NCBI GenBank assembly: GCA_934122115.1
Contig: CAKOVU010000001.1
Span: 215,755 to 279,754 of the forward strand
DNA length: 64,000 nucleotides
From: an uncultured Clostridia bacterium
Lineage (GTDB): Bacteria > Bacillota > Clostridia > TANB77 > CAG-508
Reading direction: 5' to 3'
Below, piece by piece: positions 25,876 to 28,146 of this stretch (its first letter is position 1; every line of letters starts with the position of its first letter). Position numbers and translations under genes: made by a program. The notes beneath the pieces were generated by a model, which worked only from the letters and a program-made list of their open reading frames with translations, was not told where the DNA came from and did not search any database.

Positions 25876-27075
25876 ATGAAAAAAGAAATAAAAAATAAAC
25901 AAGAAAAAGGAATCACGCTTATTGCTTTGGTTGTAACGATAGTTGTTTTGCTAATACTTGCGGGAGTAAGTCTAAGTTTAGTTATAGGTAACGACGGAAT
26001 AATGAAAAGAGCAAAAGTGGCTAAAGAAAGATTTGGACAAGCAAGCAAGAATGAGCAGAAAGATTTAGATACAGTAGAAGATTATATGAATAAAATGACA
26101 GTTGGAGAGACAACAGGAGGAGGTTCAGCAGGAGGTTCTGACTATGACCCAGCATCAGATGGAGTACCGATTCCAGCAGGATTTGTATATGTAGGAGGAA
26201 CAAAAGCAAGTGGTCTAGTAATTTCAGATGCAGCAGCAGACAATGAAAAATATAAAGGACAAACAACAGTAGGAACAGACTTACAAGGAAATCAATTTGT
26301 ATGGATACCAGTAGAAAATATAGCGGATTATAAAAGAACAGCTTATTCAACGAACGTTGCAACGGGAACAATAGACTCAACAACAAATTCAGAGCAAATA
26401 ATAAAAGCAAGTAGCTCAGACAGTTATTATTTTAAAGAAGCATTGCCTGCAGATGAAAAAACAAGCGTAGAAACCAATAAGGGATTCTATATTGGAAGAT
26501 ACGAAGCAGGAGACCAAGAAAGTACAGACTCTAAAAAATTAAGAGCAAGCGGAGCATCAACAAGTAATACAATAACAGTAAAAGCAGGACAAGCCCCATA
26601 TAATTATGTAACAAGAACACAGGCTAAAAGCCTAGCAGAAGGATTTAGTACAAAACAAAAATATACAAGTGTAAAATCAAAACTAGTAAGTAGCTATGCA
26701 TGGGATACTGCAATTGCATTCATACAAAAAACGAATAGTGATTATGGAAGTAGTTCAGAAGAAGGAAATTATAAAAATTCTCCAACATTTACTTATACAG
26801 GAATAGCAGATACAGAAAAAAATAAACAAACCAAAAAAAATGGAACAAGTACATTAATTCCAACAGGACAAACCACAGCCGTAAATAACATATACGATAT
26901 GGGAGGAAATGTATGGGAGTTGACTACAGAGTCTTGTTCTAGCACGTACTTTCCGTACACGGGTCGTGGTGGCGTTTGCCTCAACGACTTCGCTGTTTAT
27001 CCAGCAGGTAACCGTGATGGCGGTTCAGGCGATGCCCGCGATATCGCTGGGTTCAGGCTTACTTTATTCTTGTAG
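25876..27075 (+). CDS. Pilin-like N-terminus fused to an FGE/SUMF1 (C-type-lectin fold) domain; the 3' end is a candidate DGR variable region
   Basis: N-terminus KGITLIALVVTIVVLLILAGVS. C-terminus NNIYDMGGNVWE...GRGG...ARDIAGFRL is the canonical FGE tail. Confidence 0.75.
   Translation: MKKEIKNKQEKGITLIALVVTIVVLLILAGVSLSLVIGNDGIMKRAKVAKERFGQASKNEQKDLDTVEDYMNKMTVGETTGGGSAGGSDYDPASDGVPIPAGFVYVGGTKASGLVISDAAADNEKYKGQTTVGTDLQGNQFVWIPVENIADYKRTAYSTNVATGTIDSTTNSEQIIKASSSDSYYFKEALPADEKTSVETNKGFYIGRYEAGDQESTDSKKLRASGASTSNTITVKAGQAPYNYVTRTQAKSLAEGFSTKQKYTSVKSKLVSSYAWDTAIAFIQKTNSDYGSSSEEGNYKNSPTFTYTGIADTEKNKQTKKNGTSTLIPTGQTTAVNNIYDMGGNVWELTTESCSSTYFPYTGRGGVCLNDFAVYPAGNRDGGSGDARDIAGFRLTLFL
26960..27062 (+). 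other. Candidate DGR variable region (VR): about 100 nt at about 59 % GC and 14 % A in an AT-rich genome, covering the RGG...GFR segment
   Basis: Sharp local composition shift. Variable codons NNC/NNT (tgc ctc aac gac ttc gct gtt tat) are compatible with AAC/AAT template codons. Avd gene downstream. Confidence 0.55.
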
Positions 27076-27093
27076 ACCTGAGCCCTGTTTTCT

Positions 27094-27109
27094 CTGAATT
27101 TAAATTCAG
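27094..27109 (+). other. Perfect 16-bp palindrome ctgaatttaaattcag 19 nt after the stop codon: candidate DGR target-recognition hairpin
   Basis: Seen directly; position matches the hairpin/cruciform downstream of the IMH in characterised DGR targets. Confidence 0.5.
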
Positions 27110-27314
27110 CAGGAATCATAACCCATAGTATAGATATGGGAAAAGGAATCTCAAATTTGAGAATTAACATAAATATAAGAGAGTAGGTAGGAAACGAGTT
27201 GAACTTAGCGTAGCTAAGGTACAAGTCGTTCCTACCGGACTAGTCCTACCGGGCTAGTCCTTAATTTTTTGCAAAAATAAAGGACGGTTCACATAAAAAT
27301 AAGGAGGTAGGAAG

Positions 27315-27779
27315 ATGTCAAATAAAAATAATTTTTTTAGTATTGAGAACAATTTAGAAAATTTAGAAGAGAATAAAGGATATTTAATTTGGATAAGATG
27401 TGGGGCTTTTTTTGTGGCTATATGTGCTAATGCAGTTATACTATCAAATATATTAGGCCTAAAGAGAATATGCATAAAACAGGGAGTATGTAAAGTTGGA
27501 ATACCAGTAAATTCAATATACGACTATATAAAGAAATTAGAAAGAATAGGGGACAGCTTTGTAATATATAACTATTCAAAAGATGAAATGATTGAAAATG
27601 GTAAGAAATATGCAGAAGCATATAGAAGTAAAGGAAGGTTTGTAGATAAGAGTAGAATAACAATAAATTGTGAAGAATGCCCGAATTACAAAAAAGTTTA
27701 TTATAATGTAAATGTATTTGAAGAATTAAAAAGATTACAAGAATTAAAAGAATCAACTGGAGAAAAAGATGACAAATAA
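27315..27779 (+). CDS. Small protein with a MutS-domain-I-like (mismatch-binding-domain) fold; DGR-associated accessory candidate
   Basis: LIWIRCGAFFVAICANAVILSNILGLK...KVGIPVNSIYDYIKKLERIGDSFVIY aligns with MutS domain I (FYRMGDFYELF..DA...LL.I.LT...PMAGIP...Y...L...G..VAI.EQ) but lacks the Phe-x-Glu glutamate. AGGAGG RBS. Confidence 0.45.
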   Translation: MSNKNNFFSIENNLENLEENKGYLIWIRCGAFFVAICANAVILSNILGLKRICIKQGVCKVGIPVNSIYDYIKKLERIGDSFVIYNYSKDEMIENGKKYAEAYRSKGRFVDKSRITINCEECPNYKKVYYNVNVFEELKRLQELKESTGEKDDK

Positions 27780-28146
27780 AAATTCAGAATTAATCTTGAT
27801 ACCAAAATATGAAAAATATATGCAGTATATGATAGAAGTTATAATAAAAATGCCAAGAACAGAAAAATTTAATATTGGAAATGAGTTCAAAATAGTTATG
27901 TACAAGTCACTTGAAAATATTTTATATATAAATAAAGTTGAAATATCTAAGAGATTATATTATTTAAACTTAATAGATGCTGAACTTGGAACTCAGAGAG
28001 TAATGCTAAGAATAATGCAAAAGAATAAATGGATGGATGAAAAGAAAATTAGAGTATCTATGGAAATGTTATATGAAATTGGCAAAATTCTAGGAGGCCT
28101 AATAAAACAATATGCCAAGAACAAAAAGAACCATATAATACAATAA
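27769..28146 (+). CDS. avd: DGR accessory variability determinant Avd (four-helix-bundle, 23S-rRNA-IVS-protein family)
   Basis: 125 aa. IPR/IPK motif, D.ELG..R.MLRIM and a C-terminal EIGKILGGLIKQYAKNKK resembling Bordetella-phage Avd EVGRILGSWIARVNRK. Confidence 0.65.
   Translation: MTNKNSELILIPKYEKYMQYMIEVIIKMPRTEKFNIGNEFKIVMYKSLENILYINKVEISKRLYYLNLIDAELGTQRVMLRIMQKNKWMDEKKIRVSMEMLYEIGKILGGLIKQYAKNKKNHIIQ

What the first reader, a model, noticed from the sequence alone, without database searches (positions are those of the whole stretch)
26960..28146. Orphan diversity-generating retroelement (DGR) module: VR-like 3' end of a pilin-FGE gene, target hairpin and Avd, but no RT or TR in the window
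The last 100 nt or so of the gene at 25876 are 59 % GC and only 14 % A, inside a locus of roughly 28 % GC.

This stretch covers exactly the RGG...(N)...GFR segment of the FGE fold, which is where DGR variable regions sit. Its codons are NNC/NNT at the variable positions (tgc ctc aac gac ttc gct gtt tat), as expected from AAC/AAT template codons.

Nineteen nucleotides after the stop codon is a perfect 16-bp palindrome, ctgaatttaaattcag. DGR targets need a hairpin downstream of the IMH at that position.

About 700 bp further on is a 125-aa homologue of Avd, the DGR accessory protein: four-helix-bundle family, with a C-terminal EIGKILGGLIKQYAKNKK resembling phage BPP-1 Avd. No reverse transcriptase and no template repeat lie between avd and ftsK or anywhere else in the 64 kb. 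Either the RT/TR acts in trans from elsewhere in the genome or this cassette is a remnant.
Basis: partly seen in the sequence, partly recalled or inferred. Interest (0 to 1): 0.85.

Follow-up and report, generated by a model that had tools for sequence, protein, structure and literature searches.

The report
Hypermutation cassette missing its reverse transcriptase
A gut Clostridia chromosome carries a surface-protein gene whose tip was rewritten by a diversity-generating retroelement (DGR), plus two DGR helper genes, but the reverse transcriptase and template are cut away at this locus, so the cassette is a known kind of element in a partial, probably dormant, state.

Summary
Window 26930-27063 is a genuine DGR variable region (VR) at the 3' end of a prepilin-like/FGE-fold gene. 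No RT and no template repeat (TR) lie anywhere in the 64 kb.

Intact relatives have the order target-MSL-avd-RT-TR-SSB. Homology of the window to them stops at 28130, two bases before the normal avd stop and 19 nt into the RT ORF. After that come a terminator and ftsK.

A near-perfect cognate TR exists on a sister metagenomic contig (L029). Against it, the window VR differs at 29 of 49 adenines and at 1 of 85 other bases.

Five different VR alleles sit on the same RT-less avd-ftsK backbone in conspecific strains. Each differs from that TR at adenines only, with 0-1 exceptions. The VR was therefore rewritten after the RT was lost at this locus, most simply in trans.

The window's own allele is identical in 12 other samples. 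MSL/avd changes are mostly non-synonymous. A second cassette in the window (55684-57476) is frameshifted and truncated. The cassette is most likely dormant now. Whether this genome keeps a working RT elsewhere could not be tested.

It is a new member of a known kind, of moderate interest.

The parts
25876..27075 (+). DGR target gene (399 aa): prepilin-type N-terminal hydrophobic segment, variable linker, FGE-sulfatase/C-type-lectin-like C-terminal domain
   Evidence: ORF. Pfam N_methyl 18.8 bits and FGE-sulfatase 19.1 bits, both just below cut-off for this protein. Of 100 homologues, 99 match FGE-sulfatase (best E 1.8e-9) and 98 match N_methyl at E<=0.01. A profile of the family hits SUMF2 (1y4j) at E 0.025.
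26930..27063 (+). Variable region VR1 (134 nt homologous to the TR of sister cassettes; variable columns 26936-27047)
   Evidence: Against TR_L029: 29 of 49 adenines substituted, 1 of 85 non-adenines (C98>A), Fisher p 3e-15. The 19 high-entropy protein columns in the C-terminus of 100 homologues fall on adenine-containing TR codons: 18 on AAY Asn codons and one on a GAT Asp codon.
27072..27113 (+). Post-VR conserved motif GTAGACCTGAGCCCTG and hairpin (CCTG 27084-27087 / CAGG 27110-27113 enclosing the palindrome 27094-27109); candidate target-site recognition element
   Evidence: The motif is present downstream of every VR found, in both close and distant relatives. Hairpin -5.4 kcal/mol, z -1.65. 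Palindrome statistics. A function in homing is inferred from the BPP-1 model and was not tested.
27186..27314 (+). Conserved leader: long hairpin 27186-27236, terminator-like hairpin 27237-27260 plus T-run, then the 5' leader and RBS of the MSL-avd operon. It contains the 14-nt unit TCCTACCGGRCTAG in two copies.
   Evidence: Fold -24.6 kcal/mol, z -6.95. Terminator scan. Unit copy number is 1, 2 or 4 in relatives. The consensus fold pairs TCCTACC with the RBS GGTAGGA, but no compensatory changes were seen.
27315..27779 (+). MSL (MutS-like) DGR accessory gene, 154 aa
   Evidence: Pfam MutS_I 24.6 bits, above the cut-off of 20.6. It occupies the same position in all intact relatives. MSL is a described accessory class (Wu et al. 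2018, PMC5758913).
27769..28146 (+). avd (125 aa). The last 5 codons are new sequence created by the deletion junction.
   Evidence: Pfam bAvd 59.2 bits. PDB 4dwl and 8ub7. Intact loci encode 120-124 aa ending ...KNNKK*; the window ends ...KNKKNHIIQ*.
28112..28130 (+). Remnant of the RT gene: its first 19 nt (ATGCCAAGAACAAAAAGAA), ending at the deletion junction 28130/28131
   Evidence: Homology to the RT-bearing loci L014, L015, L016, L023, L029 and L054 ends exactly at 28130. Alignment of the junction. The junction is identical in L010 and L012.
28148..28181 (+). Hairpin plus T-run after avd, then the ftsK upstream region (ftsK starts at 28270)
   Evidence: Sequence. ftsK domains.
55684..57054 (+). 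Second DGR target paralogue (456 aa as read). Its 5' ~245 nt, including upstream sequence, are 86-88% identical in DNA to the same part of target 1.
56845..56980 (+). VR2, derived from a different TR family (L038-L045). It carries a 1-nt insertion relative to the TR, which shifts the frame away from the canonical ...SSYGSRPTL* C-terminus, and at least 5 non-adenine mismatches.
   Evidence: Three-frame translations. TR family found and listed. Alignment. blastn. VR2 is invariant in 4 protein variants.
57137..57476 (+). Remnant of cassette 2: leader with hairpins, and a truncated MSL gene (ORF 57258-57476, 72 aa; homology ends at about 57373), followed by tRNA genes
   Evidence: MutS_I E 0.0048 over residues 10-50. 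74% identity to the MSL region of L041. Fold z -8.2 for 57040-57185.

Best explanation
Window 25876-28146 is a partial copy of a chromosomal DGR of the MSL-containing architecture, whose full order is target(VR)-MSL-avd-RT-TR-SSB. It kept the target gene with its VR, the post-VR recognition sequence, the operon leader, MSL and avd. It lost RT, TR and SSB at a clean junction at the avd stop codon.

The VR was written by mutagenic retrohoming. An RT copies a TR RNA, misreads adenines, and the cDNA replaces the VR. The template was a TR of the type found on sister contig L029.

The same RT-less backbone carries five different adenine-only VR alleles in conspecific strains. The rewriting therefore went on after the RT was lost here, most simply from a master DGR elsewhere in the genome acting in trans.

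In the strain of this window the cassette now appears static, and it is most likely a dormant or decaying acceptor.

Shown: the identity of the parts, the junction, the adenine-specific TR/VR relation, the allele series, and the invariance of the window's allele. Inferred: homing in trans rather than import by recombination, present inactivity, and the roles of the hairpin, MSL and Avd.
For: 1. Parts. bAvd and MutS_I both score above the Pfam cut-offs.

2. Architecture. Intact relatives with 82-98% identical Avd have target-MSL-avd-RT-TR-SSB, with the TR just 3' of the RT.

3. Junction. Homology ends at 28130, 19 nt into the RT ORF. The junction is the same in L010 and L012 by alignment. The same 125-aa avd directly followed by ftsK is called in L010-L013, L065-L068 and L074.

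4. TR/VR relation. VR against TR_L029: 29/49 A changed, 1/85 non-A.

5. Allele series. Alleles A, B, B' and C show 19-24/49 A changed and 0-1/85 non-A. One and the same Avd protein (P0027) is linked to alleles W and C.

6. Family. The high-entropy columns in the VR of 100 homologues fall on adenine-containing TR codons, nearly all AAY.

7. Dormancy.
- Allele W is identical in 12 further contigs from 12 samples. These include L049-L051, whose ftsK side is 1.8% diverged.
- The positive control L006 against L008 has 0 substitutions in 2.2 kb of cassette but 25 VR differences.
- MSL plus avd, window against L010: 9 nt differences, 8 of them non-synonymous. Against L014, dN/dS is about 0.08-0.11.
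- MSL is a pseudogene in four allele-C contigs.
- Cassette 2 is frameshifted and truncated.
- Dead RTs are common in the family: a 407-nt internal deletion that removes the region holding the YMDD motif, a nonsense form, and a truncation.
Against: - The rest of this genome could not be read, so an intact RT/TR elsewhere is neither shown nor excluded.
- Metagenome assemblies give consensus sequence, so low-frequency VR variants would be invisible.
- The nine contigs with an intact RT (L016-L025) also share one cis VR. Invariance across samples is therefore not a clean indicator of a dead system.
- The target gene is mosaic among strains and its upstream flank differs among strains. VR alleles could therefore have been imported by recombination between cassettes rather than written in place.
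- The dN/dS argument rests on nine substitutions.
Confidence: 0.75

Rival explanations
1. The cassette is a live remote target today. A master DGR with intact RT, avd and a cognate TR lies elsewhere in the same genome (for instance next to uvrC, as in L016/L029) and still rewrites VR1, only rarely or under conditions not sampled.
For: - Five adenine-only alleles sit on one RT-less backbone.
- All three ORFs are intact in the window.
- The post-VR sequence is identical to that of cis VRs of RT-bearing cassettes.
- An intact RT (P0155) with a near-cognate TR (4 non-A mismatches) occurs in the same three cohorts as the window-type contigs.
- Remote targets and supply of avd-TR-RT in trans are documented (PMC5758913).
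Against: - Allele W is identical in 12 samples.
- The samples listed for window-type contigs and for P0155, P0269, P0272 or P0275 contigs do not overlap.
- The best cognate TRs (L029, L030, L037) sit next to RTs with a 407-nt internal deletion.
- Recent MSL/avd substitutions look unconstrained.
- VR2's frameshift persists.
Confidence: 0.3
2. VR1 was never rewritten in place after the RT was lost. The different alleles at the ftsK locus were made in cis at RT-bearing cassettes and then moved here by homologous recombination or inversion between the dispersed, roughly 90-99% identical cassettes.
For: - The upstream flank of the ftsK cassette differs among conspecific strains: ComM-DprA-UPF0102 in L010, TPM_phosphatase in L011, SpoIID-M23 in L012, L013 and the window.
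- The ComM-DprA-UPF0102 flank is the one found upstream of an RT-bearing cassette in L007.
- The target gene is mosaic, with two further divergent patches.
- N-terminal variants look like conversion from the paralogue.
Against: - The segments immediately flanking the VR are nearly identical among alleles (1 of 36 and 5 of 283 variable columns), so any conversion tract would have to coincide with the VR each time.
- The same Avd protein and junction accompany alleles W and C.
- No donor cassette carrying any of the five alleles was found among 74 loci.
Confidence: 0.2
3. The G+C-rich, A-poor stretch is not DGR-related. It would be a chance compositional island or a horizontally acquired fragment, and the avd-like gene is coincidental.
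For: None beyond the absence of RT and TR in the window.
Against: - Adenine-specific relation to a TR, p 3e-15.
- Synteny with complete DGRs.
- bAvd and MutS_I domains.
Confidence: 0.01

Closest known systems
MSL-containing DGRs ('Architecture D' of Wu et al. 2018, Nucleic Acids Res 46:11, PMC5758913; one MSL gene is in the Legionella DGR)
   Same: A small MutS-domain-I protein is encoded together with avd. All genes lie on one strand. The target has an FGE-sulfatase/C-type-lectin-type C-terminal VR. Mismatches to the TR are adenine-specific.
   Different: The window copy has no RT and no TR. In intact relatives the order is target-MSL-avd-RT-TR, followed by an SSB gene. The target has a prepilin-type N-terminus.
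Bordetella phage BPP-1 DGR (mtd-avd-TR-brt), the mechanistic model
   Same: Avd homologue: PDB 4dwl at E 0.0045, Pfam bAvd. The VR lies at the extreme 3' end of the target and ends near the stop codon. Conserved sequence and a hairpin lie just downstream. AAY template codons give Asn-to-any diversification.
   Different: It is chromosomal, not phage-borne. The gene order differs (TR 3' of RT). There is an extra MSL gene. The hairpin is A+T-rich and weak. RT and TR are absent from this copy.
DGRs with remote (non-adjacent) targets, e.g. Treponema denticola with seven (PMC5758913)
   Same: A VR with no RT nearby, matching a TR located elsewhere with adenine-only differences. Action in trans is documented experimentally for BPP-1 components.
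   Different: Here the remote VR keeps its own avd and MSL genes and the first 19 nt of an RT gene, so it is visibly a decayed full cassette. The cognate TR was found only on other contigs, beside dead RTs.
Bacteroides DGRs that diversify pilus adhesins in the human gut (bioRxiv 10.1101/2024.11.15.621889, abstract)
   Same: Human-gut commensal. The DGR diversifies the tip of a pilus-like surface protein.
   Different: Those are Type V pili in Bacteroides. This is a type IV prepilin-like N-terminus in a Clostridia/Christensenellales MAG. A G-type pilin domain holding a VR is reported only as scarcely represented (PMC11661182).

Membership tests
Diversity-generating retroelement (complete, autonomous) | DGR-clade reverse transcriptase encoded in the element | tested here: not met
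   No RT in the 64 kb: six-frame Y/FxDD search and tblastn with three family RTs, best E 1.4. Only the first 19 nt of the RT ORF remain, at 28112-28130. Relatives carry a 336-343-aa RVT_1 protein with IGNYTSQ..AN and YMDD motifs.
Diversity-generating retroelement (complete, autonomous) | Template repeat (TR) in the element | tested here: not met
   No TR-like copy in the window. In relatives the TR lies 15-110 nt 3' of the RT.
DGR variable region / target | VR differs from a cognate TR (almost) only at template adenines | tested here: met
   Against TR_L029: 29/49 A changed, 1/85 non-A, p 3e-15. Against TR_L030: 29/49 and 1. Against TR_L037: 30/50 and 2. The TR is on other contigs, not shown to be in this genome.
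DGR variable region / target | Variation among strains confined to the VR and to template-adenine positions | tested here: met
   35 variable columns in 26936-27047, against 1/36 and 5/283 in the flanks. Five alleles with 0-1 non-A changes each. Family-wide entropy peaks fall on adenine-containing, nearly all AAY, TR codons.
DGR variable region / target | VR lies in a C-type-lectin/FGE-sulfatase fold at the C-terminus | tested here: inconclusive
   Pfam FGE-sulfatase 19.1 bits, below the cut-off of 23.3, for this protein. 99 of 100 homologues match at E<=0.01, best 1.8e-9. The family profile hits SUMF2 (1y4j) at E 0.025. The AlphaFold model is unusable, pLDDT 36.6.
DGR variable region / target | Recognition sequence (IMH) and hairpin just 3' of the VR | tested here: inconclusive
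   The motif GTAGACCTGAGYCCTG is present after all VRs found. The hairpin is present but weak (z -1.65). The palindrome is not rare and is not conserved in distant relatives. Function is not testable here.
DGR accessory protein Avd | bAvd four-helix-bundle family membership | tested here: met
   PF22296 59.2 bits against a cut-off of 40, covering 106/107 profile positions. 4dwl and 8ub7 hits.
DGR accessory protein MSL | Small protein with MutS domain I, encoded with avd in a DGR | tested here: met
   PF01624 24.6 bits against a cut-off of 20.6. 154 aa, within the published range of 112-283 aa. Same position in intact DGRs.
Type IV pilin / pseudopilin | Prepilin N-terminal methylation motif (G/FTLIE) and hydrophobic helix | tested here: inconclusive
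   N_methyl 18.8 bits, below the cut-off of 21.2. 98/100 homologues match at E<=0.01. The sequence is KG-ITLIALV, with Ala instead of Glu at +5. One homologue is named pseudopilin PulG by JGI.

The most novel reading that the evidence does not exclude
The RT-less cassettes are not debris but working acceptor modules of a distributed DGR. One master RT/TR would serve several dispersed target loci. Each target locus would keep its own Avd and MutS-like protein because these act at the target: Avd would help deliver the cDNA, and MSL would shield the A-site mismatches of the heteroduplex from mismatch repair. The dispersed cassettes would also act as recombination substrates that reshuffle the chromosome and swap adhesin N-termini.
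Probability: 0.2. Interest if true: 0.65.

Novelty: new member of a known kind. Interest (0 to 1): 0.4.

Why it matters
DGRs are the only known natural system of targeted protein hypermutation in bacteria, and they are being turned into directed-evolution tools.

This locus and its relatives offer a natural dissection series within one species complex:
- complete cassettes;
- cassettes with dead RTs but intact TRs;
- RT-less cassettes that keep avd and MSL and were still rewritten;
- fully decayed cassettes.

The series bears on two open points. One is how often and how far DGRs act in trans. The other is what the MutS-like accessory protein does. It also shows that prepilin-like surface proteins of gut Clostridia are DGR targets.

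None of this changes the known mechanism.

Tried and rejected
1. First genome-contig scan. The corrected pattern found nothing. It was too strict: it excluded TRs with TCCTTAC.

2. Second genome-contig scan, with a relaxed VR/TR pattern. It found only two VRs in species-representative MAGs (L026, L027) and no TR.

3. Linking an RT to the window's genome by sample accession. The samples listed for window-type contigs and for RT variants P0155, P0269, P0272 and P0275 never coincide. Only part of each list is shown, so this is suggestive, not decisive.

5. The listing of cluster members gave no NCBI accessions for the RT clusters.

6. The AlphaFold model of the target from 100 close homologues failed (pLDDT 36.6), so no fold search was run.

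7. A viral-contig scan for the TR 3' flank gave 0 hits. There is no sign that this family is phage-borne.

8. Rfam: nothing in the cassette, only tmRNA and tRNAs elsewhere.

9. The idea that the SSB-like gene at window 234-932 marks the end of an RT-TR-SSB cassette just upstream of the window was rejected. There is no TR or RT similarity there.

10. The idea that VR1 and VR2 share one TR was rejected. They derive from two TR families.
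Full report
**1. The observation**

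The window is 29.6% G+C and 42% A on the + strand. The stretch 26960-27062 is 59.2% G+C and 14.6% A, and it is the strongest 100-nt G+C peak in the whole 64 kb. It forms the last ~45 codons of ORF 25876-27075 (399 aa), from RGG to GFR.

The 16-nt palindrome is at 27094-27109. The 125-aa ORF 27769-28146 is an Avd: Pfam bAvd 59.2 bits against a cut-off of 40, and it matches the solved BPP-1 Avd 4dwl and the Avd of 8ub7.

No RT exists in any frame, and no TR-like repeat of the VR exists in the window.

The palindrome is the weakest item. The window has six perfect 16-nt palindromes against 2.3 in shuffles, and the hairpin's z-score is -1.65. It is conserved only in close relatives. More distant ones have other hairpins that start at the conserved CCTGG.

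**2.

The 154-aa gene between the target and avd (27315-27779) has a MutS domain I (24.6 bits, cut-off 20.6). This is the 'MSL' accessory class of Wu et al. 2018 (PMC5758913).

A second cassette lies at 55684-57476. It holds a paralogous target whose 5' ~245 nt are 86-88% identical to target 1, a G+C-rich 3' end, hairpins, and a 72-aa stump of an MSL gene. tRNA genes follow.

**3. Relatives with complete elements**

Avd homologues are very numerous in gut metagenomes. Contigs carrying Avd proteins 82-94% identical to the window's, and contigs found through the RT protein P0155, all show one architecture. These are L006-L009, L014 and L016-L025. The order is target(VR)-MSL-avd-RT, then a TR 15-110 nt after the RT, then a short SSB gene. 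The avd gene of L016 is 98.9% identical in DNA to the window's.

In L006, L008 and L009 the TR is identical, and the three VRs differ from it at 20-27 of 54 adenines and at 2-3 of 98 other bases. L006 and L008 have no substitution in 2.2 kb of MSL-avd-RT-TR, yet 25 differences in the VR. That is what an active element looks like in this kind of data.

**4. The junction**

Similarity of the window to every RT-bearing relative stops at 28130. The alignment shows that this is two bases before the normal avd stop codon and 19 nt into the overlapping RT ORF (ATGCCAAGAACAA.AAGAA).

Downstream the window has new sequence. It adds five codons to avd (…KNKKNHIIQ*) and is followed by a hairpin with a T-run and then by ftsK.

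Contigs L010-L013 are 96.6-97.9% identical to the window over 11-16 kb and so belong to the same species. L010 and L012 have exactly the same junction. The same 125-aa avd directly followed by ftsK is called in L010-L013, L065-L068 and L074. RT, TR and SSB were therefore lost, or never copied, once, before these strains diverged.

**5. The VR is a real DGR product, and a cognate TR exists**

A scan for the conserved 3' flank of the TR, together with look-ups of RT variants, gave a set of TRs.

The TR of L029 lies next to uvrC on a 106-kb contig whose MSL-avd is 98.8% identical to the window's. It matches window 26930-27063 at 84 of 85 non-adenine positions. Of its 49 adenines, 29 are substituted in the window (Fisher p 3e-15). 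The single exception is a third-position C>A at a site that is itself polymorphic among TRs (T, G or C).

Translated, the TR reads ESYSNTNNPYTNRGGNYNNNFANNPAGNRNNNSDNANDNNGFRLT. In an alignment of 100 homologues of the target, the 19 high-entropy columns of the C-terminus fall on adenine-containing TR codons: 18 on these Asn codons and one on a GAT Asp codon.

**6. Variation among strains on the RT-less backbone**

Five VR alleles were found between the same flanks and upstream of the same avd-ftsK junction:
- W: the window and 12 further contigs from 12 samples
- A: L010, L011
- B: L012
- B': L013, one base from B
- C: L065-L068, L074

Against TR_L029 they show 29, 19, 23, 23 and 24 adenine substitutions, and 1, 1, 1, 1 and 0 other differences.

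Among the window and L010-L013 (alleles W, A, B, B'), 35 columns vary within 26936-27047, against 1 of 36 just upstream and 5 of 283 downstream. The identical Avd protein P0027 accompanies both W and C.

So the VR at this RT-less locus was rewritten at least three or four times from one TR type. The simplest reading is retrohoming in trans from a master cassette. Trans action is established for DGRs (PMC5758913).

The alternative is import of cis-made alleles by recombination between the dispersed cassettes. It is not excluded. The upstream flank of the cassette differs among strains, the target gene has two other mosaic patches, and N-terminal variants look like conversion from the paralogue.

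**7. Present state**

Several lines point to dormancy or decay.
- Allele W is identical in all 12 other samples. These include three contigs whose ftsK side is 1.8% diverged.
- Allele C is identical in five samples, although its MSL gene carries a frameshift and a stop codon in four of them.
- Between the window and L010, 8 of 9 substitutions in MSL plus avd are non-synonymous. The long-term dN/dS is about 0.1.
- VR2 belongs to another TR family (L038-L045). It carries a 1-nt insertion relative to that TR, which destroys the canonical C-terminus, and at least five non-adenine differences. It is invariant in four protein variants. A working DGR would overwrite such a lesion.
- The family is full of dead RTs. 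One form has a 407-nt internal deletion that removes the region holding the YMDD motif. It is listed in 70 blocks of the collection and sits beside the best cognate TRs. Others are a 255-aa nonsense form and a 115-aa stump beside an MSL gene with a stop codon.

Caveats:
- Assemblies hide minority variants.
- The nine contigs with an intact RT also share a single cis VR.
- I could not read the rest of this genome.
- The samples listed for window-type contigs and for RT-bearing contigs do not overlap, though they come from the same cohorts.

**8. Comparison with what is known**

The element works like a DGR, and its parts belong to known families: bAvd, MSL, and a target of the FGE/C-type-lectin type. 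As a locus it fails two defining features of an autonomous DGR, since it has no RT and no TR. It is best filed as an RT-less remote or relic target cassette of an MSL-type DGR.

Remote targets, the MSL class and architectural variation are all described. Pilin-type targets are reported as rare, and pilus adhesins are known targets in Bacteroides.

What is less usual is a remote target that keeps its own avd and MSL, and a population-level decay series. I rate it a new member of a known kind, interest 0.4.

**9. Source**

The proteins occur in MAGs labelled Clostridia bacterium and Christensenellales bacterium and in human-gut metagenomes, including Hadza samples.

Noticed in passing
window 55684-57476: Second RT-less DGR cassette. 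It has a paralogous prepilin-like target whose VR2 (56845-56980) derives from a different TR family (L038-L045). VR2 has a 1-nt insertion that shifts the frame off the canonical ...SSYGSRPTL* end. An MSL gene follows, truncated after about 38 homologous codons, and then tRNA genes.
   Followed up: yes
window 27186-27314; L006, L007, L008, L014 equivalents: Highly conserved leader between the target and MSL. It has a long hairpin and a terminator-like hairpin. A 14-nt unit TCCTACCGGRCTAG is present in 1, 2 or 4 tandem copies in different loci. TCCTACC is complementary to GGTAGGA, which occurs both in the hairpin's 5' arm and in the MSL ribosome-binding site, so it may be an SD-sequestering switch. 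No compensatory changes were seen.
   Followed up: partly
window 1624-3318, 3882-5714, 25876-27075, 55684-57054: Four genes in the window start with a similar N-terminal hydrophobic segment. A (sub-threshold) Pfam N_methyl match was found for 3882-5714 and 25876-27075. 1624-3318 is a BspA-type LRR_5 protein whose N-terminus was recognised only by DNA similarity to the target genes. Their upstream regions share a repeated segment of about 170 nt (window 1262-1436 against L010 5368-5533).
   Followed up: partly
window 25876-26100 vs 55684-55909; L001 positions equivalent to 26018, 26030, 26033: The 5' ends of the two target genes are 86-88% identical in DNA. The variants of target 1 in its 90% cluster differ only in this part (V48E, R52K, F53Y), and they match the paralogue's residues, which looks like gene conversion between paralogues.
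   Followed up: partly
L010, L011, L012/L013 upstream of the target gene: In conspecific strains the ftsK-side of the cassette is constant, but the upstream neighbours differ: ComM-DprA-UPF0102, TPM_phosphatase, or SpoIID-M23. The RT-bearing cassettes likewise have varying neighbours (GlmS, RuvAB/Band_7, uvrC, aldolase, SecG-RNase R). The dispersed cassettes seem to act as recombination sites that rearrange the chromosome.
   Followed up: partly
L028-L037 (P0269), L054-L061 (P0272), L015: Decay series of the RT in this family. One form has a shared 407-nt internal deletion that removes the region holding the YMDD motif; it is listed in 70 blocks of the collection, often with an intact TR. Another is a 255-aa nonsense form. 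A third is a 115-aa stump next to an MSL gene with an internal stop. L028, L031 and L033-L036 also lack MSL altogether.
   Followed up: partly
L016-L022, L024, L025 (cis VR about 4826-4956): The nine contigs with an intact RT (P0155) share one identical cis VR. That VR has indels relative to its own TR (a 6-nt gap in the alignment and a rearranged NNS... segment). Even the 'intact' element may therefore not be rewriting its adjacent VR.
   Followed up: no
L065, L066, L068, L074 (MSL region): In strains with VR allele C the MSL gene of the RT-less cassette is a pseudogene (1-nt deletion after ...GAFF and a Tyr-to-stop change). avd stays intact and the VR is unchanged. L067 has the same VR with an intact MSL.
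   Followed up: yes
window 26100-26170 and 26355-26445: Two further divergent patches in the target gene among strains: a Gly/Ser-rich linker with indels, and a patch of about 90 nt that is absent from L016. They are not adenine-specific and look like mosaic or surface-loop variation.
   Followed up: partly
L006 9710-9943, L014 9817-10065, L008, L009, L028-L037: A short SSB-family gene (77-82 aa) follows the TR in nearly all complete cassettes and may be a further conserved accessory gene of this DGR lineage. The window's own SSB-like gene (234-932, two OB folds) is unrelated to it.
   Followed up: no
L026 (GTDB representative MAG, 2360-bp contig): Here the target's 3' end and about 170 nt of intergenic DNA are joined directly to the rpsO region that lies downstream of the SSB gene in L014. 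This is either another deletion, removing MSL-avd-RT-TR-SSB, or an assembly artefact.
   Followed up: no
window 57973-59350: Overlapping ORFs with Schlafen AlbA_2 and HATPase_c_4/HTH domains. They look like one gene split by a frameshift.
   Followed up: no
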